Source: an uncultured Alphaproteobacteria bacterium (GTDB lineage Bacteria > Pseudomonadota > Alphaproteobacteria > SHNJ01). Taken from it: a stretch of DNA of 64,000 bases. The notes beneath the pieces are model-generated. The model was not told the DNA's origin. It searched no databases and worked only from the letters and a program-made list of their open reading frames with translations. The stretch's first letter is position 1; the number at the start of each line of letters is the position of its first letter. Made by a program: the position numbers and the translations under genes. Shown one piece after another: positions 2,916 through 64,000 of this stretch. The DNA lies in contig CAYWJR010000003.1 of NCBI GenBank assembly GCA_964458615.1, positions 2,262 to 66,261 on the forward strand, given 5' to 3'.

Positions 2916-3820
2916 TTATGACGTGGAATGTTCCTTGTGGGTAACTGGCTGGCTGATTGCGAAAATTGCCGATACAACCATAAATACGCCAATATATTGC
3001 ATCAAAGTCAGACTTTCGGATAACAGCCATACCGCGCCAAGGATCGATACAACCGGTTCCAGCTTCATTACCAAACTGACACGCAGGGCGGATATGCTTT
3101 TGATAGCGACAAAGAACGAAATTTGACCCACCAGCGATAATATTAAAGATGTTGCGATCAATGCCCATCCCGATGCGTCATCGGCAGCGGGCAGGGCGAT
3201 GCCGTGCGATAACGACAATCCCGCAAATGCCAATGTTGGAATCAAACTGAGTTGTACGGTAAAAACATACGCATCGCGGTCGGCGATTACCTTGTTGCTT
3301 AGATAAAGGTAACTGGCGATCAATATGCTTGCGCCAAATGCCATGGCGCCGCCAGCGATATTGAAATCGCTGTGAATCATTCGGTCTGGATTTATCACCA
3401 ACGCCAATCCAACAAGAGCGGTTGCCAGCGACAAAAGAAACACCCGCGTCAATTTTGTTTTGTCGAAATAAAAATGCAGCGCTGCCAAAATCAATGGGTA
3501 AAGAAAAACCAGCATGGTGACGGATGCAATATCCAAATATTCAATCGAGCTGTAATGCAGCCAGCTGAATAAAAGGAAAATAACGCTGATTGCCGCAACC
3601 GGCGCGTAATTTTTAACGCCCGACCATAATTGTTTGCCCATTAAATACAGCACAAAGCCGACGCCAAAACATTGCGCCATGCGGTTGGCCGCCATATAGG
3701 AATAAACATCCATGCCATGGCATAAACGGCCTTGGCGATCGGAACCTGGATGCCGAAACAAAACGCGGACACAACCGCCAATGCGCATCCGATCCAAAAT
3801 TCTTTTTTTTGTTGGGACAT
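2916..3820 (-). CDS. EamA/DMT-family transporter with an apparent single-nt frameshift near 3700-3730 (pseudogene or sequencing error)
   Basis: The N-terminal TM1 frame (MSQQKKEFWIGCALAVVSAFCFGIQVPIAKAVYAMAW) starts at ATG 3820, overlapping the upstream stop as TAATG. The rest of a 10-TM DMT protein continues in the -1 frame (MDVYSYMAANRMAQCFGVGFVLYL...). Confidence 0.6.
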
Positions 3821-9476: not shown

Positions 9477-9478
9477 GA

Positions 9479-10492: not shown

Positions 10493-10648
10493 GGGGTGAC
10501 TCCATAACGGTTGGGGAAATAATAATTGGATTCGATACCTTATATTATGGGCTTTGCAGCCAAAAAAAACCATCAATCCATGAATTTGTCATAAAAAAAT
10601 AACATTACTATGGCATCTATGCGGTCGTAAAAACGAAAGAAATAAAAT

Positions 10649-14239: not shown

Positions 14240-16210
14240 ATGGCCAATAACAATCCCGCCAATTTTAACAATCCGGTTGTCAAATGGATCGACAGCCGGT
14301 TGCCGATTTTCAGCCTGATGAGCAAGGAATACGGCGTTTTCCCAACGCCGCGTAATTTCAATTACTTTTGGAATTTCGGCGCGATCGCCATGTTCATGCT
14401 GGTGACCATGATCGTGACTGGAATTTTCTTGGCGATGAATTATCAGCCGTCGACCATGCACGCATTCGATTCGGTCGAACGGATTATGCGCGATGTAAAT
14501 CACGGCTGGTTGTTGCGGTATGTGCACGCGAACGGCGCATCGTTTTTCTTTATCGCCGTTTATATCCATATTTTCCGTGGCCTGTATTACGGGTCTTATA
14601 AAAATCCGCGTGAATTATTGTGGATTTTAGGCGTCGTCATTTTGTTGTTGATGATGGCGACCGCGTTTATGGGTTACGTATTGCCTTGGGGGCAAATGTC
14701 TTTTTGGGGCGCGACGGTAATTACCAATTTGTTTTCGGCGATACCCGGCATCGGCCATGACATCGTCACATTGTTATGGGGTGGTTTTTCGGTCGATAAC
14801 CCGACATTGAACCGTTTCTTTGCGTTGCATTATTTATTGCCGTTCGTGTTGGTGGCGGTGGTGTTTTTGCATGTTTGGGCGTTGCATGTGACAGGATCGA
14901 ACAATCCTCTCGGTATCGACGTTAAAACGCCGCAAGACACATTGCCGTTTCATCCATATTACACAGTCAAAGACATGTTCGGTCTTTCGGTGTTTTTGAT
15001 CATTTATTTCGGGTTCGTTTTCTTTGCGCCTAATTATTTGGGCCACCCGGACAATTATATCCCGGCCGATCCGATGGTAACGCCGGCGCACATCGTGCCG
15101 GAATGGTATTTCTTGCCGTTTTACGCGATCTTGCGTTCGGTGCCGGATAAATTGATGGGCGTTATCGCCATGTTCGGCGCCATCGCGGTGTTGTTTGTGG
15201 TGCCGTGGTTGGATACATCCAAGGTGCGCAGCGCGCGTTTCCGCCCGATTTACAAATGGTTTTTCTGGATCTTGGCGATCGTTTGCGTTGCCTTGGGATG
15301 GGCCGGGCAAAAACCGCCCGAAGGAATTCCACTCCTGGTCGCACGTTTGGGAACCGTTTATTATTTCGCGCATTTTTTGATCATTCTGCCTTTGCTTGGC
15401 AGAATTGAAAAACCTTTGCCGTTGCCGAAATCGATTGCCGAATCGGTATTGAAAAAAGGCGCGGTTGCGGTAATCGCGGCGATGTTCTTGTTCGCCGCCA
15501 CCCCGTCGCATGCGTCTGAATCCAACATCGTTTTACCGAAAAATAATTGGTCTTTCGATGGCCCGTTCGGCACCTATGACCGCGCCGCCGCGCAACGCGG
15601 ATTCCAAGTATACAAAGAAGTATGCGCCGCATGCCATTCCCTAAGCCTGGTGGCATACCGCAACTTGGCCGATTTGGGTTATAACGAGGCGGAAATAAAG
15701 GCGATTGCCGCGCAAGCAACCGTAAAAGACGGCCCGAACGACGAAGGCGACATGTTCGAACGTCCCGGCCGCCCGTCGGATAAATTTGTATCCCCTTATG
15801 CGAATAAACAATCGGCGCGCGCCGCGAATAATGGCGCCGCACCGCCGGATTTATCCTTGATCACCAAATCGCGCGTTGGCGGCGCCGATTATTTGCATGC
15901 TTTGCTGATCGGATATGAACCTGCTCCGGCGGATTTTAAATTGTCGCCTGGCATGCATTACAATAAATATTTTGCCGGGCATCAAATCGCCATGCCTGCG
16001 CCGCTTAGCGAAGGTCAGGTGACTTATGCCGACGGCACCAAGGCAAGCGTCGATCAAATGTCGCAAGATGTCGCAACATTTTTGACATGGGCGGCGGAAC
16101 CGGAAATGGAACATCGCAAACGCACCGGCGTGCGGGTATTGGCGTTTCTTGCGGTGTTGGCCGGATTGTTTTACATGAGCAAACGCAAATTATGGAGCGC
16201 GGTGAAGTAG
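14240..16210 (+). CDS. fbcH: fused cytochrome b / cytochrome c1 polyprotein (fbcH-type)
   Basis: A single uninterrupted 656-aa ORF. Residues 1 to about 400 are cytochrome b ([13 protein letters not shown]). An internal signal-peptide-like segment follows ([23 protein letters not shown]), then cytochrome c1 (CAACHSL heme site, C-terminal TM). AGGAG Shine-Dalgarno. Confidence 0.9.
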
Positions 16211-42423: not shown

Positions 42424-43365
42424 ATGCTGATGCGTATCGTTTTATTCTTTATCCTGTGTGCTTTGCCGATGTGGCCGTTTGATTCGGCGTATTCGGCTCA
42501 ATTGGACATGAAGGCCGCGAAATCGGGCAATATGACCCAATTTTCCTATAAGTTCGAAGATTTTTCCGGGCGTCCCGTTTCATTGTCGTTCATGTTGAAT
42601 ACCCGCCAATTGAACGCAGGCGCCGGGCAATTTCAGGCATTCGATCAAGTGCAAATGGAAAATTACACGATGGAGTATTTGCATTACTATGCGGCGCAAA
42701 CGCCGGGGGTGCAAGTATCGGTCGATAAAATCGGCGATACGATCAGTTTTCACGTTATGGGGCCAAGCGACGAAGTCGTTCAACAAACCCTGGCGCAAAT
42801 GAAGCGCCGCAACGAAGAAGCGCAAGACCGGTATTTACAATCCAAATATTTTATCAAGGATACGACCGGAAAATACATTATGCCGGATCACATCCGCATC
42901 GCCGAGAATTATATCGCATCCATGCGCCCGGTGGCCAAGGCGATCGCCGCGCAATCCGCCGACAAAAGCCAGCGCGGCGTATTGAACGCCAGTTTGAATT
43001 TTTTACAATCCATACCCTATGACACATTGCAAAACCGGGCGACGTCGAACGGATCCGGATTCACGACGCCTTATGGCATGTTATTGATGAATCGCGGCGA
43101 TTGCGACACAAAAAGCGTGGCGTTGATCGCGATGATGCGGTCGTTATATCCCAACATGCCGATTGCCATGATTTATACCAATAATCATGCTTTTGTCGGA
43201 TTTCAGGTGCAGGCATTGTCGGGCGACAGGATATTGACAGTCGAACGCAAGGTGTTCGTTTTAACCGAACCCGCGGGGCCAGGGCAATTCCCGGTCGGGC
43301 GTATCGGCCATGTATCCAGCGCCGATCTAGACCGCGATTATTTTTCATATGTGATGATGCCGTAA
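42424..43365 (+). CDS. secreted protein with a transglutaminase-like cysteine-peptidase (Cys-His-Asp/Glu) motif arrangement
   Basis: Signal peptide. C-terminal region ...RGDCDTKSVALIAMMR...NNHAFVGF...VLTEP resembles a TGc papain-like catalytic triad. Confidence 0.55.
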   Translation: MLMRIVLFFILCALPMWPFDSAYSAQLDMKAAKSGNMTQFSYKFEDFSGRPVSLSFMLNTRQLNAGAGQFQAFDQVQMENYTMEYLHYYAAQTPGVQVSVDKIGDTISFHVMGPSDEVVQQTLAQMKRRNEEAQDRYLQSKYFIKDTTGKYIMPDHIRIAENYIASMRPVAKAIAAQSADKSQRGVLNASLNFLQSIPYDTLQNRATSNGSGFTTPYGMLLMNRGDCDTKSVALIAMMRSLYPNMPIAMIYTNNHAFVGFQVQALSGDRILTVERKVFVLTEPAGPGQFPVGRIGHVSSADLDRDYFSYVMMP

Positions 43366-43386: not shown

Positions 43387-43420
43387 AAAAAACCCGGCAT
43401 TTTTCAATGCCGGGTTTTTC
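43387..43420. terminator. bidirectional hairpin terminator between convergent genes
   Basis: aaaaAACCCGGCATttttcaATGCCGGGTTttttc. Confidence 0.6.
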
Positions 43421-43433
43421 AAATATTTTACGA

Positions 43434-44063
43434 TTAAATGATTTCGATGGATTCGGCTTCTTGGCCTTTGCCGCCGCTGACGACGCGCATGCGAACGGCC
43501 TGGCCTTCGTCCAGGTTTTGCAATCCCGAACGGCGCAAGGTGGACATGTGAACGAACACATCGCGGCTGCCGTCATCTGGCATCACGAACCCGAATCCTT
43601 TGTTGCTGTTGTACCATTTTACGGTGCCGTTTACTTCGTGGGCAGGTCCGGTCGGGGCGCGGCGCTCGCCGTGTCCGGAATTCCGATCGCCAAAACCGCC
43701 ACGGTCGCCATATTTGCTGCGTCCGCCGCCGCCACCGCCGCCGCCAAAATTGTTGCGGCGGAAACCGCCACCGCCGCCGCCAAAATCACGATCGCCGCGC
43801 GGGCGTTCTTGGGCTGTGCTGGTATCGACGGAAATAATTTGTTTTACTTCTTGGCCTTTTTGGCCGGTGCCGACAATGCATGTAATCGTGGTGCCGTCCG
43901 GCAATTCATCATGCCCGGAATTGGTAACAGCCGACATATGAATGAACACATCCCGATCCTGGCCGGGGATGTTGGCGAAACCAAAACCTTTTCTAGAGGA
44001 AAACCATTTGACAGTTAATGTAACAGGAGAACCGTTAGAATCCGAAGCGCCAAAATTATTCAT
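43434..44063 (-). CDS. cold-shock protein with two CSD domains joined by a Gly/Arg-rich linker
   Basis: Two copies of the G(T)VKW(F/Y)N..KGFGF motif, separated by FGGGGGGFRRNNFGGGGGGGGR. ATG 44063; the track uses GTG 44072. Confidence 0.85.
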   Translation of the reverse strand: MNNFGASDSNGSPVTLTVKWFSSRKGFGFANIPGQDRDVFIHMSAVTNSGHDELPDGTTITCIVGTGQKGQEVKQIISVDTSTAQERPRGDRDFGGGGGGFRRNNFGGGGGGGGRSKYGDRGGFGDRNSGHGERRAPTGPAHEVNGTVKWYNSNKGFGFVMPDDGSRDVFVHMSTLRRSGLQNLDEGQAVRMRVVSGGKGQEAESIEII

Positions 44064-45266: not shown

Positions 45267-45504
45267 AATAGATGTTTTTCGTATTAAAACTCCAATTACA
45301 AAAAATAACAGGACATACGAAGATGAACCAAACGAAACATAATTGCTGATCCGGTTTGATCGGCAGTTAACCAGAATCCGGCAAAATTCGGCGGCACGAT
45401 TTTAAAGTGGAATTGCATATTCTACCAATGGTTGTGTTTTGCCGTTTTGCCGGAACCACGGATTACACCACAATTATAACATCAACCATAACAGCGAGGG
45501 AATC

Positions 45505-46431
45505 ATGGCACTTACGGCATTAAAACAAAAATGGTCGGCCGCCACGCAAAGCGTGCGGTCGGCTTTTGATTCGGCCAAGTACGAAACCGATACAAAGCGA
45601 GACAATATCCACAAAATGATGGCTGCTTGGAATATCAAATCTTTTGGCGAGGCGGCAATCGATCTTGCCAGGCTTGCGGATGAAATGGGCACGCGGGCGC
45701 AACGCGAGGAAGGCGTTCCGGAACAAATGCGAATGCGTGTTTTTACGGCATTGTATCATTTGGCGTTACCGCAATTGCGATATGACATTGCCGGTTATTG
45801 GAATAAGCCCGGCGATGAATTGGAACAAGGGCCCGATGGCAAAATGAAAGAAAAAGATTGCAGCCGGTTTTTGGCAGGCGTACCCGTCGTGACGAGCGAG
45901 GGACGCCCGAGCCAGGCCAATTATGCGATCAAAACCAGTTGGCGGGACGACAGCGCGCCATTCCGCGAAGCGTTGTTTAAAATTGTCGATCCGCATACTC
46001 CGCCAACGCCGGGTAAAAAACACGCGATTTTCCATCAAATGTTCGATGCGGTCGCGTGGTATGACGGGTTTTGCGCCGTATCCGGCAATCCCGTAACGAC
46101 AGTCCGGTTGGCCAATATTTTATCCCAAGCGGCGGAATTCAGGGCGCGGGCGTATTTCGGCGCGCCGCCTTTGGAAAAAGACCTTGCTGCGCAATCGGGC
46201 GAAACGATACCTCAACGGTGGTCGCGCGCGGAACAATACGATCAATTTCAGCGTGTTTACGTTATTCGCAGCAATGTGCGGATGCCCGCGACGGTTGAAA
46301 TTTTATCGGTCGGCCAGGGTACGGCGGTCGATAAATTGATGCGAAAGGCTATGCGGGGCTGGGCAGAAGATCGCGCTGCCGCAAGATCCGTAGCCGGCGA
46401 GAAGACCAGGGAGAAAGTCCAAGCCAGATAA
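45505..46431 (+). CDS. hypothetical protein (309 aa), orphan
   Basis: Strong AGCGAGGGAATC Shine-Dalgarno before ATG 45505. Preceded by a 400-bp AT-rich non-coding stretch. No recognisable domain. Confidence 0.55.
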   Translation: MALTALKQKWSAATQSVRSAFDSAKYETDTKRDNIHKMMAAWNIKSFGEAAIDLARLADEMGTRAQREEGVPEQMRMRVFTALYHLALPQLRYDIAGYWNKPGDELEQGPDGKMKEKDCSRFLAGVPVVTSEGRPSQANYAIKTSWRDDSAPFREALFKIVDPHTPPTPGKKHAIFHQMFDAVAWYDGFCAVSGNPVTTVRLANILSQAAEFRARAYFGAPPLEKDLAAQSGETIPQRWSRAEQYDQFQRVYVIRSNVRMPATVEILSVGQGTAVDKLMRKAMRGWAEDRAAARSVAGEKTREKVQAR

Positions 46432-46477: not shown

Positions 46478-46512
46478 AATGGCCGGAACATTCATTCCGG
46501 CCATTGTTATTT
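46478..46512. terminator. bidirectional hairpin terminator
   Basis: aaaaaaATGGCCGGAAcattcaTTCCGGCCATTgttatttt. Confidence 0.55.
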
Positions 46513-46523
46513 TACCAAGAATT

Positions 46524-47093
46524 TTAGTTGGATTTCGCCTTGGATTTGGTTTTTGGTTTTTCCACGACATCCGCTGCAACATGCATTTCCAGAATTTTGT
46601 CTGGATCTTCCACTTTGCCGTTTCTGGAACGATCGCCTTTTTTCAAGGAATCGACATGTTCCATGCCTTCGGCAACGCGGCCCCAAACGGTGTACTGGCC
46701 GTCCAAATACGATGCCGGTGCAAAACAGATGAAAAATTGGCTATCCGCGCTGTTCGGATCGGCGGTGCGCGCCATCGAAACCGTGCCGCGCACGTGTTTT
46801 TCGCTGCTAAATTCGGCTGGCAATTTCGTGCCCGATCCGCCGGTTCCATCACCCTTTGGATCGCCTGTTTGCGCCATGAATCCATCGATGACGCGATGGA
46901 ACACCAAACCGTCATAATATTTTTGGCGAACCAATTCTTTGATCCGGGCGACATGTTTCGGCGCCAAATCCGGGCGCAATTCGATCACGACCCGGCCGGA
47001 TTTCAATTCCATATATAAAGTATTTTCTAAATCAGCAGCATTCACAGAAGTCACCATAATTAAAGTTAGAAAAAGAGTAAGAAGAAAACGCAT
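46524..47093 (-). CDS. ppiB: periplasmic cyclophilin-type peptidyl-prolyl cis-trans isomerase
   Basis: Signal peptide plus cyclophilin motifs (FHRVIDGFMAQTGDP...). Confidence 0.9.
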   Translation of the reverse strand: MRFLLTLFLTLIMVTSVNAADLENTLYMELKSGRVVIELRPDLAPKHVARIKELVRQKYYDGLVFHRVIDGFMAQTGDPKGDGTGGSGTKLPAEFSSEKHVRGTVSMARTADPNSADSQFFICFAPASYLDGQYTVWGRVAEGMEHVDSLKKGDRSRNGKVEDPDKILEMHVAADVVEKPKTKSKAKSN

Positions 47094-47116: not shown

Positions 47117-47545
47117 TTAAGAAGAAGGGGACGATTTTTTGCCAAAAGGCTTTTTGAACGCATCTGCGATCGCGCGCAAATTATTGCCGTGACCCGGGCT
47201 TTGCGCCGCTTTGTTAACCGGCTGCCCCGGCGCAGGTTTCAAACTGTTGGCGGACAACGGGTCTTGGCCGCCGATGGTTTTTTCCAGATGGCTGACCATG
47301 TTGGCGAATGCCGAACCGTCGATGCCTTGCGCAGATTCGTTCGCCGCGCCTTTGTTTTCCATACGATGCGCCACGCGTTGCACATGCGCCATGGTAATTG
47401 ATTCGCGGAAATTGGCGAACAGGCCGTCTTCCAATAACGGATCATCGGCGCACCGCGCCAGCAACATTTGACAGGCCTTGGTGCGGTTGCCGGTGGATTT
47501 GATCAAAGCTTCTTCGATACAGGCGTCGACGTAATTTTTGCTCAT
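47117..47545 (-). CDS. hypothetical protein (142 aa)
   Basis: ORF with a weak Shine-Dalgarno. It sits where ccmH might be expected downstream of ccmF, but it lacks a CXXC motif or signal peptide. Confidence 0.4.
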   Translation of the reverse strand: MSKNYVDACIEEALIKSTGNRTKACQMLLARCADDPLLEDGLFANFRESITMAHVQRVAHRMENKGAANESAQGIDGSAFANMVSHLEKTIGGQDPLSANSLKPAPGQPVNKAAQSPGHGNNLRAIADAFKKPFGKKSSPSS

Positions 47546-47646
47546 GATTTTTTACTCGGTTGGGAACAAACTGGATGCGCTCGAAAAAGTCTAGCATGAA
47601 AGGGGCAAAAGAAAAATTAAAAATAGCCCCCGCCACGATAAAGCCA

Positions 47647-49695
47647 TCAAAAGAACAAGAAAATGGGCGATCCGATAACGGCGTAAATGCATGCGCCGAT
47701 GCCGCAACTTATGGCTATCGGTTTGTAAGAAAACGGCAAATCGCCGGGCAGGGCGTGTTGCGATTGCGGTTTTGCGGTTAACGACCGGATTGATTGTAAA
47801 AATCCCGCCAGCGCCATAATCATCGCACCCACCCAAATCCATAAAACCAGCGGGTGATAGGACAAACGGATAATCGCATAGGATTTATCCGGCGCAACTT
47901 CGGCCAGTGCGGTGTAAACATCGCCCAAAAGATCCGGGTCGCGCGCCGCTTCGGTTGTGACGGCGCCTTGGGACGGGTACAGGCGTTTTTCGGGAAATAA
48001 ATAAAACGCGGATTGTCCGGTTTCTTCGACCAATAATTTCGCGCGCACATAGGCGTAATTATTTTCCGATCCTTCGTCGATGGATTGCAGTTCAAAACGA
48101 TAATCGCCCAATTGGTATTTTTGGCCGACGGACATTTTTTGAATATCTTCGGTCAAATACGCGGTCGATGCGATCATGCCGATCATGCAAATTCCAAGCC
48201 CCGCATGGCCAAGCGCCAATGTATGCGCGCCGAAATTCATTTGCCGCAACCGTGGCCACAACGCCAATTGTTTCGGCGCGGATTTAAACGCGCGCCGCCA
48301 ATATATCAAACTGCCGGCGATAATCCCGCATGCGATCCACATCATCGCGGCTGGGAAAAATTGAAAATGATTTTGCAAAATCAACGCCGCGGACAAAATC
48401 GCGCCCAATATCGCGCTTTGCGCCAACGGGCGCCATAAATTCGATGCGGGCGTGGCGCGATACGTCAAAAAAGGCGCGCAGATCATCAACAAAAGCAACG
48501 GGACGGATATGGGCACGAAAGTCATGGTGAAATACGGCGTGCCGACCGATAATTTTCCGCCATTATATAATTCCACAAACAACGGATATAGCGTGCCCAA
48601 AAAGACCGTAAAGCATAACACCGATAAAATCATATTGTTCAATGCAATCCCGGTTTCCCGCGACAGAAATCCGTAATCCTGTTTTGCAGGTATTGTTGCA
48701 ATCCGGCGCGCATACAAAATAAACGCCCCGCCCATGATGGCGGCGATCCCAAATAATAAAAACAGCCCGCGCCGTGGATCGTCCGCGAATGCGTGCACCG
48801 ACGTTAAAATTCCCGAACGAACCAGAAATGTGCCAATCAGACTTAGGCCGAATGTGCATAAGGAAAGCAATATTGTCGCATGCGCCAATGCCTGGCGTTT
48901 GGCGATCATCACGCTGTGCAATAACGCGGTGCATAATATCCATGGCATCAACGACGCATTTTCAACCGGATCCCAAAACCACCAACCGCCCCAACCCAAT
49001 TCATAATACGCCCAATAACTGCCCAGCGCGATGCCCAGGGTTAAAAACGACCAAACCATCGCCGCCCATCCGCGCATGGCGTGTAAAATTTCGGCGGATT
49101 TTTCCGGCTGCATCAACGCGGCGACGGCAAAACCGAACATCATCGCCGATCCGACATATCCCAGATACAAAAGCGGCGGATGGAATGCCAATCCCGGATC
49201 CTGCAAAAGCGGATTTAAATCCCGCCCGTCTTGTTCATACGGTATTTGGCGTAAAAACGGGTTGGATGCGGCAATCAGATACGCCAGAAAACAAATTGCC
49301 ACGATCATCAATGCGGTCATGACAATAAACCGGCTGCGGTGATCCAGGTTTTTTTCCAGATAACTGAACGCAAAACCGTACAACGATAAAATCCAGGACC
49401 AGAACAACACCGATCCTTCGTGATTTCCCCAGGCGCCCGCCAATTTATAAAGCCATGGTTTCATGGTATGGGAATTGGCGGCGACGTTGACGACCGTGAA
49501 ATCCGATTGCAAATAAGCCAGGATCAAACTTAGCATCGACAAGCTAAGCAACAGGAAATTGACACGCGTAAAATAAACGATCAGCCGGTAACGCGAAAGA
49601 TTTTGGGCGTATAATGGCTTCGCAGCGCAGATTATTCCGGCGGCGCAGAAAATAAACGCCAAGATGGCGGCAAAATGACCAATTTCGACGATCAT
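47647..49695 (-). CDS. ccmF: cytochrome c-type biogenesis heme lyase CcmF
   Basis: About 15 TM segments and the WGGWWFWDPVEN WWD motif. Confidence 0.9.
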   Translation of the reverse strand: MIVEIGHFAAILAFIFCAAGIICAAKPLYAQNLSRYRLIVYFTRVNFLLLSLSMLSLILAYLQSDFTVVNVAANSHTMKPWLYKLAGAWGNHEGSVLFWSWILSLYGFAFSYLEKNLDHRSRFIVMTALMIVAICFLAYLIAASNPFLRQIPYEQDGRDLNPLLQDPGLAFHPPLLYLGYVGSAMMFGFAVAALMQPEKSAEILHAMRGWAAMVWSFLTLGIALGSYWAYYELGWGGWWFWDPVENASLMPWILCTALLHSVMIAKRQALAHATILLSLCTFGLSLIGTFLVRSGILTSVHAFADDPRRGLFLLFGIAAIMGGAFILYARRIATIPAKQDYGFLSRETGIALNNMILSVLCFTVFLGTLYPLFVELYNGGKLSVGTPYFTMTFVPISVPLLLLMICAPFLTYRATPASNLWRPLAQSAILGAILSAALILQNHFQFFPAAMMWIACGIIAGSLIYWRRAFKSAPKQLALWPRLRQMNFGAHTLALGHAGLGICMIGMIASTAYLTEDIQKMSVGQKYQLGDYRFELQSIDEGSENNYAYVRAKLLVEETGQSAFYLFPEKRLYPSQGAVTTEAARDPDLLGDVYTALAEVAPDKSYAIIRLSYHPLVLWIWVGAMIMALAGFLQSIRSLTAKPQSQHALPGDLPFSYKPIAISCGIGACIYAVIGSPIFLFF

Positions 49696-49743
49696 GCCGG
49701 AATTGATAATCCAGCTTTCGATTTATGGCAAATGAATTAGCGG

Positions 49744-51036
49744 TTATTTGGGCTGAAATCCGTCTGGAAACTTGGTTCCATCGGTTTTTGCGCCTTCAAA
49801 CCGGGCGTTGTGCAAATTGCTGCCGCGCAAATCCGCGCCGCTAAGATCCGATTGCGACAAATTGGCGTCCGCCAGATTCGCGCCGGACAAATTCGCGCCC
49901 ACCATGCTGACTTTGAATAAATTCGCGCCGACCATATTGGTCGGCCAGGTGCGCCCGGTATGAATTCCATCGGGGCCTTTCAAATCGACCGGGCCCAATT
50001 GCGCGCCGTCCAAATTTGCCTGTTGTAAATCGGCGTTGGCCAGATTCACGCCTTCCATCACGGCTTTTTGCATGTTGGCTTGGCGCAAAAAGCTGTTGGA
50101 AAAATTGGTCATTACTAGGATCGAATTTTCCATATTTACATTTTGCATCACGCATTTGTCCAAATCCGCGCCGGATAAATTGGTGCCGGACAAATCCAGG
50201 CTGCTTAAATCCTCGCCGGTCAAGTTGGCGCGCGATCCTTTGGCTCCGGATTCCTTGATCCATAAAAAATGATCGTTCAATATTTGCTGGATCGACGGTT
50301 TGGCTTGTAAATTCGGGCGGGGCAGGTTGGCGCCGGTAATGTCGGCTTGCAATAAATCCAGGCCGGTCAAATTCGCTTCGTTTAAATCGGCGTGTTTAAA
50401 ACATGTGTCTTTGATTTGCGCGCCTTGCAAGTTGACTTTTATCAGCGATGCGCGGGTCAAATTCGCGCCGGATAAATTCGATCCCGATAAATTCGCGTTT
50501 TCCAAATCCGCTTCGGACAAATCGGCTTCGGACAAATTGGTTCCCGCCAATTGCGCGCCAATCAAAATAGTTTTCAGGAATTTGGCGTTTTTCAAATTGA
50601 CTTCGGCGTTCGCGCCCTTGCCGCCTTTTTTTTCATTGTCCGCCTGATACAAATCGGCGGTGGAAACATCTTCGTCCGATTTCGCCTTGCCGCTGATCAG
50701 CCGGCCGCTGCGCATATCGGCTTCGGTCATGTTGGCTTTGGTGAAATCGGCGTCCTGCAACGATGCGCCGCGCATATCGGTGCGGCATAAAATCGCCTTG
50801 GTTAAATTCGCGCCGGTCATGTTCGCGCCGTAAAAATCCGCCTCGCTTAGGTCGGATCCGGTGAAATTGCAATACCGCAAATCCGCGCCGGTGAATTGCG
50901 CCAATTTTAAATTCAAATCGACGAACGAAACACCCGACAAATTTTGGTGCGAAAAATTCGCGCGCTTGCCGCCCACCGCACCTTTTAACCAGGTTTCGTG
51001 CAAATTCAGAATTTTCATCAATTTGTCTGGGGTCAT
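49744..51036 (-). CDS. pentapeptide-repeat protein B (about 430 aa), internally duplicated
   Basis: Two blocks of A(D/N)LxX pentapeptides (GANLSGANLTRASL...), each preceded by an HxxWLxxxG helix. Start set at ATG 51036, 4 nt after the upstream stop. Confidence 0.8.
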   Translation of the reverse strand: MTPDKLMKILNLHETWLKGAVGGKRANFSHQNLSGVSFVDLNLKLAQFTGADLRYCNFTGSDLSEADFYGANMTGANLTKAILCRTDMRGASLQDADFTKANMTEADMRSGRLISGKAKSDEDVSTADLYQADNEKKGGKGANAEVNLKNAKFLKTILIGAQLAGTNLSEADLSEADLENANLSGSNLSGANLTRASLIKVNLQGAQIKDTCFKHADLNEANLTGLDLLQADITGANLPRPNLQAKPSIQQILNDHFLWIKESGAKGSRANLTGEDLSSLDLSGTNLSGADLDKCVMQNVNMENSILVMTNFSNSFLRQANMQKAVMEGVNLANADLQQANLDGAQLGPVDLKGPDGIHTGRTWPTNMVGANLFKVSMVGANLSGANLADANLSQSDLSGADLRGSNLHNARFEGAKTDGTKFPDGFQPK

Positions 51037-51040
51037 GAAA

Positions 51041-52312
51041 TCAGGCGTCCGAAAAAATGGCTTCGTTCTGGTTGGTGTTGGCGAAAACCGCCGTCGACAC
51101 GTCGCTGCCGATAAAATTGGTGTGGCGCAGATTCGATCCGGTAAAATCGGTTCCATTCAACAATGTGTTGCGGAAATTAGCGCCTTCTAAATTCGCTTCG
51201 ATCAATTGCGCGGCTTCGAGATTGGAATAGTGATTGGTGATTTTTTCGTTTCTTGATTCTTCGATCCAATCCAGATCCGCGCCGTATAAATTGGCTTTTT
51301 GCAAATTCGCTTTTTGCAAATCGACGCCGTTTAAAATCGCGCCGGTCAGATCCGCATTTTTTAAATTCGCCCAACTGAGATCCGCGAACGATAAAACGGC
51401 ATACGACAAATTCGCGGCTTCGAAATTCACGCCGGACAAATTCGCCCACATCAAATTGAAACCCGTCAAATTCGCGGATTTCAGTTCCGCGCGGCTTAGA
51501 TCGGCGCGTTGACCCAATGTTCCGCCGCTGCGGATCCATTGCAAATGCTCGCTTAACGCTTGGCGGACTTTGGACGGCAAATGCGATGTGATGGAATCGT
51601 GCATGGCGCCCATGATCGCGGCTTTGGTAAAATCGACGCCGTCGATGGTGGCGCCTTCGAAATCGGCGTAACGGAAATTGGCGCGTTCGATCGACGGGCT
51701 GGATAAATTCGCGCCTTTCAAAGACGCCAGCGATAAATTCGCATCGGTTAAAATGGTGCGGGTCAAATTCGCGCCATCCAAATTGGCGCGCGACAAATTG
51801 ACGGACGTTAAATTCGCATCGGCCAATTGCGTGCCGATCAAGGTTGCGCCCAACATCGACGATCCGGTCAAATTGGCTCCGCCGCTGTTGGGCGGATTTT
51901 TGGCCGACGATTCGATGAAATCTGCGACGGTGGCGCGGCGTTTGCCTTCGGGCGCTTCGCTTTCGGCGTCGAAAAACGATCCGCCGCGCAAATCGGCCTG
52001 TTTTAAATCCGCAAAATCCAAATTGACGCGCAACATCGATGCGCCGCGCAAATCGGCGCGGTTCATGTTGCAGTTGGATAAATCCGCGCCATCCAGTTTG
52101 GCGACGAATAAATCGGTGTAACTGAGGTTGGCGCCCGATAAATCCGCGCCGGACAAATCCGCACCGGTCAAACGCACCGATTGCAGCAAGGCGCCTTTTA
52201 GATTCATTCCGGTCAGTTTTTGTTTGGATAAATCGGCGCGTTGACCGCCAGGCAGCTTTTGCAGCCACTTGGCGTGTTTGTCTAAAATATCCTGTAATTC
52301 GGCGGTTTCCAT
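51041..52312 (-). CDS. pentapeptide-repeat protein A (about 423 aa), a paralog of B
   Basis: Same architecture (HAKWLQK... and EHLQWIRSGGTLG linkers). Start set at ATG 52312 (METAELQDILDKHAKWL). Confidence 0.8.
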   Translation of the reverse strand: METAELQDILDKHAKWLQKLPGGQRADLSKQKLTGMNLKGALLQSVRLTGADLSGADLSGANLSYTDLFVAKLDGADLSNCNMNRADLRGASMLRVNLDFADLKQADLRGGSFFDAESEAPEGKRRATVADFIESSAKNPPNSGGANLTGSSMLGATLIGTQLADANLTSVNLSRANLDGANLTRTILTDANLSLASLKGANLSSPSIERANFRYADFEGATIDGVDFTKAAIMGAMHDSITSHLPSKVRQALSEHLQWIRSGGTLGQRADLSRAELKSANLTGFNLMWANLSGVNFEAANLSYAVLSFADLSWANLKNADLTGAILNGVDLQKANLQKANLYGADLDWIEESRNEKITNHYSNLEAAQLIEANLEGANFRNTLLNGTDFTGSNLRHTNFIGSDVSTAVFANTNQNEAIFSDA

Positions 52313-52486
52313 GCGGATGAACCAGATGTTGTATCCAAACAAACTATACCACTTAAGCCGCAAAGTATATCCACATACCGGTTTGCGCGCCGGTGTTTTT
52401 GCCGCGCATGTATGATTTTATGTCGTAAAAACAACACTTTCCAATTTCGAATCCGGCGCTATATTGATTCGACATCGGAGAAATTT

Positions 52487-54040
52487 ATGACCAAATCCAA
52501 CAGCAAAAAATCCTTTTTATTAATCGTAATCGTAATCGCGGTCGGCGCGGTTTTATTTAAAAATCAGCTTATGGGAATGATTTCCGGCGGCGCGGGGGCT
52601 CCTCCGGGTGCGGCGGCGATGGGCGGGCAAATGCCGCCAATGCCTGTGGAAACGATGGTTCTGCGTAAATTGCCCATGGCTGCCGAAGTCAAGGCGGTCG
52701 GCACATTGCAAGCCGATGAATCGGTTATTTTGCGCCCGGAAATCGCTGGCCGTATCGAAACCATTCATTTCAACGAAGGCGAATCGGTCAAAAAAGGCCA
52801 GCCATTAATCACATTGGATCAAAGCCTGTATCAGGCGGAATTGCAGGAATCTTTGGCCGCGCGGGATTTGGCGCGCAAAATATACGAACGGTCCGAGGCG
52901 TTGTTTGAAAAAGGCACCGGCACCGCGAATGCCCGCGACGACAACCGTTTGAAATTGCAAGCCGCCGAGGCCAGCGTGAATCTATCCCGCGCCAGATTGG
53001 CGAAAATGCGCCTTATCGCGCCGTTCGACGGCGTTATCGGCGTGCGCGCGGTCAGTGTGGGCGATTATGTGGCGCCAGGACAGGATTTGGTCGGCGTAAC
53101 GAAATTGAATCCGTTGAAAGTCGATTTCCGCATTGCCGAAACATATTTGAACAATGTCCGCACCGGCCAGTCGATCAATTTGACATCGGCTTCGCAACCG
53201 GGTGAAAAATTCCCGGCGGAAATTTACGCCATCGATCCGCAAATCGATGTCAGCACGCGCAGCGTTGTATTGCGCGCCTATGTTCCAAACCCGAATCAAG
53301 TGTTGCGCCCCGGCGCGTTTGCGCAAATCACCATTCCGCTGGGCGATCAATTGACCGCGTTGATGGTGCCGGAACAATCCATCACCCCAACCGGCGGCAG
53401 CCAGTTCGTATATAAGGTCGTCGATGGCAAGGCGGTTACGGCGGACATTAAAACCGGATTCCGCGATAATGGGATGGTGCAAGTAACCGAAGGTTTGGCC
53501 GAAGGCGATATGATCGTCGTTGCGGGACAAATGAAAATACGCGATGGCGCGGCGGTTGCGCCAATGCCGTCGCAACAACCAATACAACAACAAGAGCAAC
53601 AACAACCTGCTCCGGCCGCTTCACCGGTGGAACATGCGCCGGCCGCTGAGGAACAATCCGTGATTGATCCAGACATGGCGGATGACGATATGGCGCAACA
53701 TGAAGCCGCGCCAATCGAAAACCCGCCTGTTGCGAAACCATCCGCGCCTGTAAAAAAGCCGGTTGCGAAAAAAACGAAACCCGCGCAACATTCCGCCCCA
53801 TCGCACACAGATCCAATCGATTCGGCCGTTCACGGTGATGCGGCGCATGGAAACGCAGCGCAAGAAAAAGCGCCAGAAAAATCATCTGCGCCAGTTGTGC
53901 CGCATGATTCCGGCACGGTCGATCATGCCGCGCCGTCTTCGCCATCCGCAAACGCGCCTGATTTGGCGGCTCCTCAACCCGATCCGGTAAAACCGCCACC
54001 TGTGTTGTTCGAAGAAGATCCGGCGCCGGCAAAAAATTAA
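52487..54040 (+). CDS. RND efflux periplasmic adaptor (membrane fusion protein) with a 170-aa Pro/Ala/Gln-rich C-terminal extension
   Basis: GGAGA Shine-Dalgarno. N-terminal anchor, then biotinyl-lipoyl and beta-barrel MFP motifs. The tail QQPIQQQEQQQPAPAASPVEHAPAAEE...PPPVLFEEDPAPAKN is low complexity. Confidence 0.85.
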   Translation: MTKSNSKKSFLLIVIVIAVGAVLFKNQLMGMISGGAGAPPGAAAMGGQMPPMPVETMVLRKLPMAAEVKAVGTLQADESVILRPEIAGRIETIHFNEGESVKKGQPLITLDQSLYQAELQESLAARDLARKIYERSEALFEKGTGTANARDDNRLKLQAAEASVNLSRARLAKMRLIAPFDGVIGVRAVSVGDYVAPGQDLVGVTKLNPLKVDFRIAETYLNNVRTGQSINLTSASQPGEKFPAEIYAIDPQIDVSTRSVVLRAYVPNPNQVLRPGAFAQITIPLGDQLTALMVPEQSITPTGGSQFVYKVVDGKAVTADIKTGFRDNGMVQVTEGLAEGDMIVVAGQMKIRDGAAVAPMPSQQPIQQQEQQQPAPAASPVEHAPAAEEQSVIDPDMADDDMAQHEAAPIENPPVAKPSAPVKKPVAKKTKPAQHSAPSHTDPIDSAVHGDAAHGNAAQEKAPEKSSAPVVPHDSGTVDHAAPSSPSANAPDLAAPQPDPVKPPPVLFEEDPAPAKN

Positions 54041-62246: not shown

Positions 62247-64000
62247 ATGGTTTTCATCGCCTTAATCGTTGTCGCGTTGGGATTGTTGTTCGTCTTTGTA
62301 TGGGAAGGCGTGCGCACATTGGACCGGGTGGACGCGCAAAACGATGTTGAAATCGTCGATTCGTTGTTGGCCGACCGCAAAAAATCCATGATCAATTTGT
62401 TGCGCGATTATGCCGAATGGACGGACGCATACCGCCGCCTGTATCAAAAAGAAGATTTGCGGTTCGCAACCGAAAACATCGCCTATAACCTGACCAACAA
62501 CTATTCCATTTATTCGGCGGCTGTGGTTCGGTTCGATAAATCGGTATGGGTGCGGTATGTTAACGGCAAAAAATCCGACCATAACGTGCTGCACGCGCAA
62601 AAAATGCGCCTCGTCGATTTATTGCTGGCGGATTTTAAGCGCAATAACGGATACCCCGAACACCGCAGCGTGGTTTCATTTGCCCAGGAAAACGGCGAAT
62701 TGATGATGTTAAGCGCCAGTTTTATCGCGCGCCTTGATGAACAATCGGGCGATGTTCTGACATTGCCGAAAAATCCATCCATGCTGTTGATGTCGCGTAA
62801 ATTGGATCGCGCGACATTGCGCGATTGGGCGGATTTATACAATATCAAGGACGTGACATTCAGCGCGCAACCGCAACCCGCCAATGATTATTTTAAAAAC
62901 ACAGGCCGTTTTCACGTCTCTTTGCACGACATAGACGGCGATCATTTGGGTTTTATCAGCTGGAAACCGACATTAAGCAGCGAATTGGTCGTGCAGGAAT
63001 TGATCCCGAATTTGACTTGTGTTTTTCTGTTGCTTGCGGCTCTGGGCGCGGTGTTTTTCTTTTATGTGCGGCGCGCGTTCGAACATCAATACAAGGCGGG
63101 GCGGGACATAGACGCCAGCCGCCAATTTTTGCAATTGGTGTTCGATACCGATCCGACCCATATTCAGGTGCGCAACAAAGAAGGCCAGATTGTATTTTGC
63201 AATGCCGCCGCCGCATCGCGTTACGGCATGACTGCAGACCGACTGACCGGACAGTCGGTGTTGAGCATAGACGCGGATCCAAATCGCGGGCACATGATTT
63301 ACGAAGACGATTTAAAAGTGATCGTGGGCGGCCGCGAAACCGCGATGGAAGAATCGTGGATGGACGACAAAGGCAATCAGCGCGTTTTTTACACGATGCG
63401 CAAACCGATTGCAGGATTTGGCAGCGAATCGATGGTGTTGTCGGTGTCCAGCGATATTACCGAACAAAAAAAGATTTTAGAGGAACTGGGAAAGGCGAAA
63501 TCGAAAGCCGAAGACGCATCGCGCGCCAAAACCGATTTTTTGGCGACCATCAGCCACGAAATCAGAACGCCGATGAACGGTATTTTGGGATTCTCGCAAT
63601 TATTGTCGGATACCAATTTAACGCAGGAACAAAACGACCATATCAAAATTATTCAAAATTCCTCGCGGTCGCTGCTTGCGATCATCAACGATATTTTGGA
63701 TATGTCGAAAATCGAATCCGGCCGGTTGCAATTGGAAAATATTATTTTATCGCCCGCCGATATTGTCAATTCGGTGATCGGCGTCACCATGCCGATGGCA
63801 AAAGAAAAGAATTTGAACATCGTCAAGGAAGCGGTTGGATCGATTCCGCCGTATTTGGGCGGCGATCCGACGCGTTTGGGCCAGATATTGATGAATATGG
63901 TGTCGAACGCGGTTAAATTCACGGAAAAGGGCGGCGTGACGGTGCGGATGCAGCAAATCGGAGCCGATAAAAAAACCACCAGAATGAAATTCGAAATTAT
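62247..64000 (+). CDS. sensor histidine kinase (TM – periplasmic domain – TM – PAS – HisKA – HATPase), 3' end beyond the window. It is not in the supplied ORF track because no stop codon falls inside the window
   Basis: Own translation of the frame that starts with TTG at 62175 runs open to nt 64000. It contains MVFIALIVVALGLLFVFVW (TM), a periplasmic domain of about 240 aa, TCVFLLLAALGAVFFFYV (TM), a PAS-like region, the H-box FLATISHEIRTPMNGILGFSQLL and the N-box LGQILMNMVSNAVKFTEKGG. TTG 62175 is an alternative start. Confidence 0.8.
   Translation, partial: MVFIALIVVALGLLFVFVWEGVRTLDRVDAQNDVEIVDSLLADRKKSMINLLRDYAEWTDAYRRLYQKEDLRFATENIAYNLTNNYSIYSAAVVRFDKSVWVRYVNGKKSDHNVLHAQKMRLVDLLLADFKRNNGYPEHRSVVSFAQENGELMMLSASFIARLDEQSGDVLTLPKNPSMLLMSRKLDRATLRDWADLYNIKDVTFSAQPQPANDYFKNTGRFHVSLHDIDGDHLGFISWKPTLSSELVVQELIPNLTCVFLLLAALGAVFFFYVRRAFEHQYKAGRDIDASRQFLQLVFDTDPTHIQVRNKEGQIVFCNAAAASRYGMTADRLTGQSVLSIDADPNRGHMIYEDDLKVIVGGRETAMEESWMDDKGNQRVFYTMRKPIAGFGSESMVLSVSSDITEQKKILEELGKAKSKAEDASRAKTDFLATISHEIRTPMNGILGFSQLLSDTNLTQEQNDHIKIIQNSSRSLLAIINDILDMSKIESGRLQLENIILSPADIVNSVIGVTMPMAKEKNLNIVKEAVGSIPPYLGGDPTRLGQILMNMVSNAVKFTEKGGVTVRMQQIGADKKTTRMKFEI

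What the first reader, a model, noticed from the sequence alone, without database searches (positions are those of the whole stretch)
49744..52312. Tandem pair of internally duplicated pentapeptide-repeat proteins upstream of ccmF
Two adjacent minus-strand genes, 4 nt apart, each encode about 425 aa made almost entirely of A(D/N)LxX pentapeptide repeats. Each protein is itself a two-fold repeat: an HxxWLxxxG helix (HETWLKG, HFLWIKESGAKG, HAKWLQK, HLQWIRSGG) followed by a long pentapeptide block, then the same again. The locus therefore reflects both intragenic and tandem gene duplication. The pair lies 49 nt upstream of ccmF on the same strand and is divergent from an RND pump operon. Pentapeptide-repeat proteins form right-handed quadrilateral beta-helices and include DNA mimics (Qnr, MfpA) and secreted effectors of intracellular bacteria. 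Two large paralogs in tandem beside a cytochrome c maturation gene do not match any described arrangement I know of. The repeats also explain the long Arg-rich artefact ORF called on this stretch (51177..52268).
Basis: partly seen in the sequence, partly recalled or inferred. Interest (0 to 1): 0.65.

Follow-up and report, generated by a model that had tools for sequence, protein, structure and literature searches.

The report
Conserved pentapeptide-repeat gene pair beside ccmF
Two adjacent genes encode real, well-conserved "double-barrel" pentapeptide-repeat proteins that sit in front of the cytochrome c maturation gene ccmF in a whole group of uncultured alphaproteobacteria, but they belong to a very common protein fold, and their function is unknown.

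Summary
Gene B (51041-52312, 423 aa) and gene A (49744-51036, 430 aa) lie 4 nt apart on the minus strand, 48 nt upstream of ccmF. Both are strong Pfam Pentapeptide matches. Each consists of two modules: a cap helix with an HxxW motif, followed by a beta-helix. Three independent assemblies reproduce the DNA, so it is not an artefact or a mis-join.

New here:
- The two-module architecture defines a wider alphaproteobacterial family (Micavibrio, Azospirillum, Skermanella). The intragenic duplication is therefore old.
- The cluster B-A-ccmF-orf142-cyclophilin recurs in at least five other lineages (six with the window) of uncultured alphaproteobacteria, with CcmF identity down to about 42%. One further lineage has A only.
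- A and B orthologues are 55-83% identical, with dN/dS of about 0.1-0.28. The B-A junction is an ATGA overlap or a 2-4 nt gap.
- AlphaFold2 gives two capped quadrilateral beta-helices per protein (pLDDT 87). Some of the protruding segments are conserved.

Both proteins score below the family cut-offs for Qnr, MfpA, PipB/PipB2 and HetL. They have no signal peptide and only a weak net charge.

Most likely they are cytoplasmic, co-translated and possibly heteromeric protein-binding scaffolds, co-transcribed with ccmF. The target is unknown. Interest is modest.

The parts
52415..52444 (-). Sigma-70-like promoter candidate, about 100 nt upstream of gene B. It lies in the divergent intergenic region; the true start of the membrane-fusion gene is probably the ATG near 52487.
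   Evidence: 9/12 consensus match. Weak: fewer such sites were found than in shuffled sequence, so this is only a candidate.
51041..52312 (-). Gene B: two-module pentapeptide-repeat protein, 423 aa, the upstream paralogue.
   Evidence: AF2 pLDDT 87.7, pTM 0.67. Orthologues in L006, L008, L011, L019, L020 and L022 are 55-75% identical.
52262..52306 (-). B cap helix 1 (aa 3-17, includes H13-x-x-W16-L).
51878..51982 (-). B protruding loop (aa 111-145, RGGsFFdAExEAPEGKRRATVADFIE...). Low AF2 confidence, but 46% of positions are invariant among 7 orthologues.
51527..51574 (-). B cap helix 2 (aa 247-262, includes H256-x-x-W259), which opens the second beta-helix (aa 263-420).
49744..51036 (-). Gene A: two-module pentapeptide-repeat protein, 430 aa, the downstream paralogue directly before ccmF.
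   Evidence: AF2 pLDDT 87.2, pTM 0.52. Orthologues in L006, L008, L011, L015, L018/L019 and L020 are 56-83% identical.
50986..51030 (-). A cap helix 1 (aa 3-17, HETWL).
50608..50706 (-). A protruding loop (aa 111-143). Predicted disordered. Its base (GRLI) and the STADxY motif are invariant.
50254..50292 (-). A cap helix 2 (aa 249-261, HFLWIKE).
49939..49989 (-). A beta-hairpin excursion from the second beta-helix (aa 350-366, VDLKGPDGIHTGRTWPT). It is the most conserved segment of A (mean identity 0.84).
47647..49695 (-). ccmF (heme lyase, 682 aa), 48 nt downstream of A. It carries a clade-specific hydrophobic C-terminal extension.
47117..47545 (-). orf142: conserved unknown protein that always follows ccmF in this clade.
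46524..47093 (-). Cyclophilin-type peptidyl-prolyl isomerase with a hydrophobic signal-like N-terminus (MRFLLTLFLTLIMVTSVNA), read by eye as a signal peptide. It is the last gene of the conserved cluster.
46478..46505 (-). Strongest terminator-like hairpin of the region (12-bp stem plus a T run), 19 nt after the cyclophilin stop.
51177..52268 (-). Arg/Phe-rich shadow ORF in a different frame of gene B. Not a gene.

Best explanation
B and A are ancient tandem paralogues from a family of cytoplasmic, two-module pentapeptide-repeat proteins.

Structure. Each protein is built from two right-handed quadrilateral beta-helices. An N-terminal HxxW helix caps each beta-helix. Sequence-conserved protrusions decorate the helices: a roughly 33-aa loop in the first barrel of both proteins, and a beta-hairpin in the second barrel of A.

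Shown:
- the fold, the two-module architecture, the paralogy and the absence of export signals;
- strong purifying selection on both copies;
- a tight B-A junction (ATGA overlap or a 2-4 nt gap) in six lineages;
- a conserved cluster B-A-ccmF-orf142-cyclophilin with no convincing internal terminator and a strong terminator after the last gene.

Inferred:
- The five genes form one operon.
- B and A are made in equal amounts by translational coupling. They act together as a heteromer that replaced an ancestral A-only homomer.
- Like the few pentapeptide-repeat proteins of known function, they work as rigid binding surfaces that dock onto another macromolecule through the protruding loops.
- The partner is most likely a protein.

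Whether the partner has anything to do with CcmF or envelope biogenesis is the weakest step.
For: Fold:
- Pfam Pentapeptide matches at E=2e-77 and 1e-71.
- AF2 mean pLDDT is 87.2 (A) and 87.7 (B). The models show helices at 3-17 and about 247-262, and a strand every fifth residue elsewhere.
- Foldseek matches HetL, Np275/276, AlbG, QnrB1 and MfpA at E=1e-12 to 1e-7. Each hit covers only one of the two domains (TM normalised to query <=0.32).

Family:
- In the 22-protein alignment, H13, G22, G23, D87, R89, G90, D107, R109, G111, H256 and G264 are invariant. W259 and G267 are invariant in 14 proteins and at least 90% conserved in 22.

Pairing and operon:
- The B-A distance is -4, -4, -4, +2, +2 and +4 nt in six lineages.
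- The A-ccmF gap is 8-95 nt in six lineages.
- There is a terminator-like hairpin only 19 nt after the cyclophilin gene.

Conservation:
- The cluster is found in L006/L007, L008, L011/L012, L018/L019 and L020. L015/L016 has A only, and L013/L014 has at least A.
- The divergent neighbour changes between lineages (RND pump or xseB/polyprenyl synthase).
- dN/dS is about 0.10-0.28 at dS of about 0.9-1.3. A and B orthologues are 69-83% identical in genomes where CcmF is 54-57% identical.

Functional surfaces:
- 46% of B's loop positions are invariant.
- A's hairpin is its best-conserved segment.

Location:
- The maximum 19-aa hydropathy is below 1.0, and there is no twin-arginine motif.
- In the NJ tree the nearest outgroup is a Skermanella/Azospirillaceae group. 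Several 490-505-aa two-module proteins among the hits carry a C-terminal PilZ domain (PF07238), which is a cytoplasmic signalling domain. The group's two Azospirillaceae members, P0012 and P0035, have a PilZ-like C-terminal motif by eye but no PF07238 annotation.
Against: - No direct evidence exists for any binding partner, for A-B association or for co-transcription. The promoter and terminator calls are consensus matches only.
- The whole neighbourhood is syntenic in this clade (SppA, polyprenyl synthase, xseB, SDR). Adjacency to ccmF could therefore be inherited gene order without a functional link.
- In L008 a 213-nt gap separates A from ccmF.
- Family members outside the clade are not next to ccm genes.
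- The AF2 alignments were shallow (14 and 22 sequences), and the relative orientation of the domains is uncertain (pTM 0.52-0.67).
- dS is near saturation, so the dN/dS values are approximate.
- The tree was built from repeat proteins, which are hard to align.
Confidence: 0.5

Rival explanations
1. DNA mimics of the Qnr/MfpA/AlbG type. Each roughly 200-aa barrel imitates a stretch of B-form DNA, and the two barrels in one chain stand in for the Qnr/MfpA homodimer. The pair would bind gyrase or topoisomerase IV and regulate or protect it.
For: - This is the only well-established biochemical activity of free-standing bacterial pentapeptide-repeat proteins (review PMC8145042).
- QnrB1, AhQnr, AlbG and MfpA are structural matches to single domains.
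- Each domain is about Qnr-sized and carries a protruding loop near its middle, as Qnr proteins do.
- Both proteins are acidic, with pI 5.1-5.5.
Against: - NCBIfam scores fall well below the cut-offs: Qnr 84 and 77 bits against 240, MfpA 85 and 70 bits against 360.
- Net charge is only -7 and -11 over about 430 residues, and the A-only orthologue in L015 is +1 (pI 7.65).
- The modules are joined head-to-tail through a linker and a helix. As far as I know, Qnr and MfpA form two-fold C-terminal dimers (own knowledge).
- No mfpB-like GTPase or topoisomerase gene is adjacent.
- The closest sequence and structure matches are HetL and Np275/276, not Qnr.
Confidence: 0.2
2. Dedicated cytoplasmic accessory factors of cytochrome c maturation. 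A (with B) would dock on cytoplasmic parts of the clade-specific CcmF, or on orf142, and control assembly or activity of the heme lyase.
For: - A is directly upstream of ccmF in every lineage of the clade that was found. The gap can be as short as 8 nt.
- CcmF of this clade has a C-terminal hydrophobic extension absent from other alphaproteobacteria, and orf142 is found only with it.
- There is a loose precedent. The pentapeptide-repeat protein PedD is conserved beside a PQQ dehydrogenase and cytochrome c550, and is needed for growth on alcohols (PMC12997753).
Against: - The evidence is gene order only, in a region that is syntenic as a whole.
- The chemistry of CcmF takes place on the periplasmic side, while A and B have no export signal.
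- Relatives of the family elsewhere are not linked to ccm genes.
- No other ccm genes were found among the genes scanned in the window.
Confidence: 0.12
3. Secreted or translocated effectors, in the manner of PipB2, SopA or Legionella-type repeat proteins. They would act on a eukaryotic or bacterial host or prey.
For: - One source names a relative 'secreted effector protein PipB2' (P0012).
- Some family members come from predatory Micavibrio.
- PipB and PipB2 models give partial hits.
Against: - PipB2 scores 123 and 137 bits against a 354-bit cut-off, and PipB scores 132 and 124 bits against 274. The matches are to repeats only.
- There is no signal peptide.
- No secretion-system genes appear among the window genes scanned.
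- Purifying selection is strong, and the genes sit in a housekeeping cluster.
- The PADLOC defence library gives no hit.
Confidence: 0.05
4. An artefact: a mis-assembled repeat region, or two Qnr-sized genes wrongly joined.
For: The DNA contains short 15-nt tandem repeats.
Against: - Three independent assemblies are 99.9-100% identical across the region.
- Intact orthologues of the same length occur in at least seven other contigs.
- dN/dS is well below 1.
Confidence: 0.01

Closest known systems
Unnamed family of about 400-500-aa two-module pentapeptide-repeat proteins of Alphaproteobacteria (for example P0069 and P0082 from Micavibrio, P0046 from Skermanella pratensis, and P0012 and P0035 from Azospirillaceae). 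Databases annotate them only as 'pentapeptide repeat-containing protein'.
   Same: They have the same architecture and the same invariant residues: H13, G22, G23, D107, R109 and G111 at the loop base, and H256 and G264, with W259 and G267 nearly invariant. Identity is 25-35% over the full length.
   Different: Those checked are single genes in unrelated contexts. Several related hits carry a C-terminal PilZ domain. Here there are two diverged paralogues, translationally coupled and fixed in front of ccmF.
HetL (All3740, PDB 3DU1) and Np275/Np276 (PDB 2J8K) of Nostoc
   Same: These are the best structural and sequence matches among natural proteins. They are cytoplasmic pentapeptide-repeat beta-helices. 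Np275 and Np276 are adjacent pentapeptide-repeat genes that were crystallised as a fusion.
   Different: They are single beta-helix domains of 98-237 aa. The HetL NCBIfam model scores 173 and 159 bits against a cut-off of 260. They are cyanobacterial and have no link to ccm genes.
Qnr / MfpA / AlbG topoisomerase-protecting DNA mimics
   Same: They share the fold, and each has a monomer about the size of one domain here. Qnr proteins also carry functional loops that project from the beta-helix (review PMC8145042).
   Different: They are about 180-220 aa and form homodimers. All family models score well below their cut-offs here. The net charge here is weak. Gyrase activity was not tested.
PedD (PP_2673/PA1981), the pentapeptide-repeat protein of the Pseudomonas ped/exa cluster
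   Same: It is a pentapeptide-repeat protein of unknown function, conserved next to genes of a periplasmic redox system that includes a c-type cytochrome.
   Different: PedD is predicted to be non-cytoplasmic and is a single gene. It sits beside a dehydrogenase and cytochrome c550, not beside the maturation machinery. No sequence comparison was made here.

Membership tests
Pentapeptide-repeat protein superfamily (Pfam PF00805; Rfr fold) | At least eight contiguous A(D/N)LxX-type pentapeptides | tested here: met
   PF00805 matches at E=2e-77 (A) and 1e-71 (B), 11 stretches each. About 60 and 56 units are in register.
Pentapeptide-repeat protein superfamily (Pfam PF00805; Rfr fold) | Right-handed quadrilateral beta-helix | tested here: met
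   AF2 models have pLDDT 87. Foldseek hits to HetL, Np275/276, AlbG, Qnr and MfpA all have probability 1.00. These are predictions, not solved structures.
Two-module alphaproteobacterial PRP family (unnamed) | Two cap-helix-plus-beta-helix modules, with H13, G22-G23, D107-x-R109-x-G111, H256 and G264 invariant and W259 and G267 nearly invariant | tested here: met
   Alignments A1 and A3; cap profile test.
Qnr family (NCBIfam NF033086) | Whole-protein score at or above the curated cut-off (240 bits); length about 211-218 aa | tested here: not met
   84 bits (A) and 77 bits (B). Lengths are 430 and 423 aa.
Qnr family (NCBIfam NF033086) | Protects gyrase or topoisomerase IV from quinolones | not testable with these tools
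   Needs an enzyme assay or an MIC test.
MfpA (NCBIfam NF000349) | Score at or above 360 bits; about 183 aa; adjacent mfpB-type GTPase | tested here: not met
   85 and 70 bits. The neighbours are ccmF, orf142, cyclophilin, a membrane-fusion protein and an RND pump.
PipB / PipB2 type III effectors (NF011744 / NF011743) | Score at or above 274 / 354 bits, including the N-terminal translocation region | tested here: not met
   PipB scores 132 (A) and 124 (B) bits. PipB2 scores 123 (A) and 137 (B) bits. Only the repeat part of each model is matched.
HetL (NF047416) | Score at or above 260 bits | tested here: not met
   173 and 159 bits.
Alr5209 family (NF052603) | Score at or above 125 bits against a 113-position equivalog model of a roughly 149-aa protein | tested here: inconclusive
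   The 174 and 179 bits exceed the cut-off, but only as a sum over 6 and 4 separate repeat stretches in proteins three times the model length. Direct similarity to PDB 6OMX is weak (E=7e-10 over 57 residues). I do not file the proteins there.
Anti-phage defence components (PADLOC-DB) | Match to any defence-system protein model | tested here: not met
   No hits for A, B, orf142 or orf330.

The most novel reading that the evidence does not exclude
The A/B pair, together with orf142 and the extra C-terminal helix of CcmF, is a lineage-specific cytoplasmic accessory module of System I cytochrome c maturation. It would be the first case of a pentapeptide-repeat heteromer acting on a membrane heme lyase.
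Probability: 0.1. Interest if true: 0.65.

Novelty: new variant of a known kind. Interest (0 to 1): 0.3.

Why it matters
Pentapeptide-repeat proteins are very common. This search found 104,287 cluster representatives at E<=0.001. Yet according to the 2021 review (PMC8145042), an explicit biochemical function is known for only two kinds.

This locus gives a clean evolutionary handle on one subfamily. It has a two-barrel architecture that I did not find among solved structures. An ancient gene pair is kept under selection and is apparently co-translated. Specific loops are conserved. The genomic partner set is fixed (ccmF, orf142, a periplasmic cyclophilin). This turns "unknown repeat protein" into a few testable questions: do A and B form a heteromer, what do the loops bind, and does CcmF depend on them?

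If the answers are negative, this is simply another uncharacterised member of a huge family.

Tried and rejected
- The search for related loci with the 14-sequence family alignment failed because no stretch was conserved enough.
The source genome and its relatives are not in that collection.
- The search for homologous proteins with B returned repeat-driven hits of 41% identity or less, and no self hit. The exact A and B sequences are not in that protein collection. Orthologues were therefore reached indirectly, through CcmF and a metagenome scan.
- The search of 1.84 billion representatives was swamped by giant multi-block repeat proteins. It gave no family-specific count.
- The afdb50 fold library was unavailable.
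- P0120 had no encoding contig on record.
- Literature searches found nothing relevant on pentapeptide repeats with ccmF, with PilZ, or as heterodimeric paralogues, apart from PedD.
- Accession searches showed only that GCA_900143125.1 is a freshwater metagenome. The organism can be named only as an uncultured alphaproteobacterium. CcmF is 43-45% identical to those of Pelagibius, Kiloniellales and Sneathiella.
- I considered and rejected a link to the divergent RND pump, because the pump is absent in four lineages. I also rejected a defence-system role, because PADLOC gives no hit.
Full report
**1. Observation**

The ORF list and sequence reads place two genes on the minus strand.
- Gene B is at 51041-52312 and encodes 423 aa, starting METAELQDILDKHAKWLQK.
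- Gene A is at 49744-51036 and encodes 430 aa, starting MTPDKLMKILNLHETWLKG.
- The genes are 4 nt apart (TGAtttcATG).
- A's stop lies 48 nt before the ATG of a 682-aa CcmF. That protein matches PF16327 (E=7e-82) and PF01578 (E=7e-49).

Both A and B are overwhelming matches to Pfam Pentapeptide: E=2e-77 and 1e-71, with 11 stretches each. About 60 and 56 pentapeptide units are in register.

A and B align end to end at 32% identity (E=6e-66).

Logan assemblies from three different sequencing runs reproduce 47498-53201 at 99.9-100% identity. The repeats are therefore not an assembly artefact.

**2. Internal duplication**

I built a profile from the N-terminal cap segments of nine clade proteins. 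In every protein, its best non-self match is the segment around residue 245. The scores are +13 to +20 against a background of -24 +/- 10.

In B, residues 4-191 align colinearly with residues 247-423 (32% identity, E=1e-19).

AlphaFold2 gives the same picture for both proteins.
- A: mean pLDDT 87.2, pTM 0.52.
- B: mean pLDDT 87.7, pTM 0.67.
- The order of elements is helix 3-17, a beta-helix to about residue 240, a short linker, a second helix (249-261 in A, 247-262 in B), and a second beta-helix to the C-terminus.
- A low-confidence loop of about 33 residues interrupts the first barrel (111-143).
- A beta-hairpin excursion interrupts the second barrel (about 350-364).

Foldseek against the PDB returns only pentapeptide-repeat structures: HetL, the Np275/276-based designed solenoids, AlbG, QnrB1, AhQnr and MfpA, at E=1e-12 to 1e-7. 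Each hit covers one domain only, with TM normalised to the query of 0.32 or less.

The 2021 review counts sixteen solved pentapeptide-repeat structures. Thirteen are single domains with capping helices, and three are joined to other kinds of domain. I found no solved protein with two capped barrels in one chain.

**3. The architecture is a family trait, not a trait of this locus**

Full-length hits of 400-500 aa come from Micavibrio, Azospirillaceae, Skermanella and unnamed Alphaproteobacteria. They share the two-module layout.

In the 22-protein alignment, H13, G22, G23, D87, R89, G90, D107, R109, G111, H256 and G264 are invariant. W259 and G267 are invariant among 14 proteins and at least 90% conserved among 22.

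Several 490-505-aa two-module hits carry a C-terminal PilZ domain (PF07238).

The members whose context I could read are single genes in unrelated neighbourhoods:
- P0007 lies between pgi and an SDR gene.
- P0046 of Skermanella lies after an ABC transporter.
- P0035 lies beside a GGDEF response regulator.

The intragenic duplication therefore long predates this locus.

**4. The gene pair and its neighbours are conserved in a clade**

The protein collection does not hold A or B themselves, so I went through CcmF.
- Its closest relatives are only 42-57% identical.
- The nearest named ones (Pelagibius, Kiloniellales, Sneathiella) are 43-45% identical.

The contigs that encode the close relatives have the following layouts.

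| Contig(s) | Layout |
|---|---|
| L006/L007 (380-kb contig of GCA_013558375.1) | B-A-ccmF-orf140-cyclophilin |
| L008 (GCA_900143125.1, a freshwater metagenome) | same |
| L011/L012 | same |
| L018/L019 | same |
| L020 | same |
| L015/L016 | A-type gene only |
| L013/L014 | cut within A |

The divergent upstream neighbour varies. It is the RND pump in the window, L006 and L019. It is xseB/polyprenyl synthase in L008, L011, L015 and L020. The pump is therefore not part of the unit.

A neighbour-joining tree gives these results:
- The A orthologues have 100/100 bootstrap support, and so do the B orthologues.
- A+B are sisters in 90/100.
- The Skermanella/Azospirillaceae group is the nearest outgroup.

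Repeat proteins are hard to align, so the deeper nodes are tentative.

**5. Selection**

Between the window, L006 and L008:
- A is 69-83% identical and B is 69-75% identical.
- dN is 0.11-0.24 and dS is 0.9-1.3, giving dN/dS of roughly 0.10-0.28. dS is close to saturation.
- In the same genomes, CcmF is 54-57% identical and orf142 is 54-75% identical.

Both paralogues are thus better conserved than the heme lyase next to them.

Within the proteins, the protrusions are not freely variable.
- In B's loop (RGGxFFxAExxAPEGKRRATVADFIE), 46% of positions are invariant across seven orthologues.
- A's hairpin (VDLKGPDGIHTGRTWP) is its best-conserved segment, with mean identity 0.84.
- B's hairpin is variable (0.45).
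- A's loop keeps only its base (GRLI) and an STADxY motif.

The two copies have thus specialised differently.

**6. Operon structure (predicted)**

- The B-A junction is an ATGA overlap in three lineages, a 2-nt gap in two, and a 4-nt gap here.
- The A-ccmF gap is 8, 42, 48, 48, 55 and 95 nt in six lineages. It is 213 nt in L008, where it contains two GC hairpins.
- A promoter-like site lies at 52444-52415(-).
- The strongest terminator-like hairpin of the 6.4-kb region lies at 46505-46478(-), 19 nt after the cyclophilin stop. No comparable hairpin sits in the intergenic gaps.

These are consensus matches, not measurements.

**7. Location and family membership**

- Neither protein has a hydrophobic segment (maximum 19-aa Kyte-Doolittle mean below 1.0) or a twin-arginine motif.
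- The cyclophilin has a hydrophobic, signal-like N-terminus (read by eye).
- All NCBIfam models of characterised pentapeptide-repeat proteins score far below their cut-offs (A and B scores in bits):

| Family model | A | B | Cut-off |
|---|---|---|---|
| Qnr | 84 | 77 | 240 |
| MfpA | 85 | 70 | 360 |
| PipB2 | 123 | 137 | 354 |
| PipB | 132 | 124 | 274 |
| HetL | 173 | 159 | 260 |

- The short Alr5209 model passes its cut-off only by adding up 4-6 separate repeat stretches.
- PADLOC gives nothing.
- Net charge is -7 (A) and -11 (B), and +1 for the A-only orthologue.
- The rest of the window is ordinary alphaproteobacterial housekeeping sequence. It includes a fused cytochrome b-c1 gene, prs, lgt, L25, ychF, a MoxR/BatA cluster and ABC transporters. 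No secretion system was seen among the ORFs scanned.

**8. Interpretation**

Shown:
- Two real, selected, cytoplasmic, two-barrel pentapeptide-repeat paralogues.
- They are tightly juxtaposed and fixed in front of ccmF-orf142-cyclophilin across a deep, uncultured alphaproteobacterial clade.

Inferred:
- The five genes are co-transcribed.
- B and A are translationally coupled and act together. They are plausibly a heteromer that arose from an A-type homomer, given the A-only lineage.
- They bind a partner through the conserved protrusions. The few pentapeptide-repeat proteins of known function also work by binding.

I put about 0.5 on this general model. About 0.1 lies on the sub-case that the partner belongs to the cytochrome c maturation machinery.

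The Qnr/MfpA-type DNA-mimic alternative gets about 0.2. The fold, the domain size and the loops fit it. The family scores, the weak charge, the head-to-tail joining and the gene context do not.

A secreted-effector role is unlikely (0.05), and an artefact is excluded.

**9. Novelty and score**

The fold and the superfamily are well known and very abundant: 104,287 cluster representatives at E<=0.001.

What I could not find described is:
- the two-capped-barrel architecture as a defined family;
- the coupled A/B pair;
- its fixed association with ccmF.

PedD of the Pseudomonas ped cluster is the nearest published case of a pentapeptide-repeat gene kept beside a c-type-cytochrome-dependent system.

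I rate this a new variant of a known kind, with modest interest (0.3). It is a solid, testable lead, but a specialist would not find it very surprising, and no mechanism is established.

Noticed in passing
window 47647-47730 (-), CcmF residues ~655-682; also P0122, P0124, P0125, P0127, P0128: CcmF of this clade ends in a hydrophobic extension of about 25-30 aa (FSYKPIAISCGIGACIYAVIGSPIFLFF; motif Y..xG[SA]P[IVF]F). The extension is absent from CcmF of Pelagibius, Sneathiella, Nisaea and Marinivivus. It looks like one extra transmembrane helix.
   Followed up: partly
window 47117-47545 (-): orf142 follows ccmF in every clade contig but has no Pfam, NCBIfam, PADLOC or PDB match. Its N-terminal domain is conserved (YVDxCIEEAL..GNRTKA..LLA..D.LLEDGLFA.FRE), and the GNRTKA stretch faintly resembles a Fis-type helix-turn-helix. 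The middle region is variable, and the C-terminal motif HGxNLxAIADAFKKPFKK is invariant.
   Followed up: partly
window 53500-54040 (+): The membrane-fusion protein of the RND pump has a Pro/Ala/Gln-rich, low-complexity C-terminal tail of about 170 aa. The L006 orthologue lacks it (430 aa against 542 aa as called). The true start is probably the ATG near 52487 rather than 52412.
   Followed up: no
window 14240-16210 (+): A single 656-aa ORF combines cytochrome b and cytochrome c1 domains. This is a fused bc1 gene like fbcH of some alphaproteobacteria.
   Followed up: no
L008 9788-10000: The A-ccmF spacer is 213 nt here, against 8-95 nt in the other lineages. It contains two GC-rich hairpins (TCATTCCGGCGCAAGCCGGAATC and GACCCCGACTTGCGTCGGGGTGAC), which may be a small inserted repeat element.
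   Followed up: no
window 45439-46431 (+), 42424-43365 (+), 43407-44018 (+), 63017-63916 (+), 3820-5892 (-), 10649-11827 (+): Several sizeable ORFs have no Pfam match. orf330 (45439-46431) is syntenic but evolves fast: 31-51% identity where neighbouring genes are 54-91% identical, with dN up to 0.75.
   Followed up: partly
proteins P0003, P0004, P0006, P0018, P0054, P0112; also P0012 and P0035: Several 490-505-aa two-module pentapeptide-repeat proteins have a C-terminal PilZ domain (PF07238). This suggests that this kind of protein can be wired to cyclic-di-GMP signalling. P0012 and P0035 of Azospirillaceae have a PilZ-like C-terminal motif by eye only. P0035 lies next to a hemerythrin/GGDEF response regulator.
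   Followed up: partly
window 5885-10576 (-): A MoxR-type AAA ATPase, a DUF58 protein and a BatA/DUF4159 protein form a cluster of the Bat (aerotolerance-like) type, followed by a 690-aa ORF with no Pfam hit.
   Followed up: no
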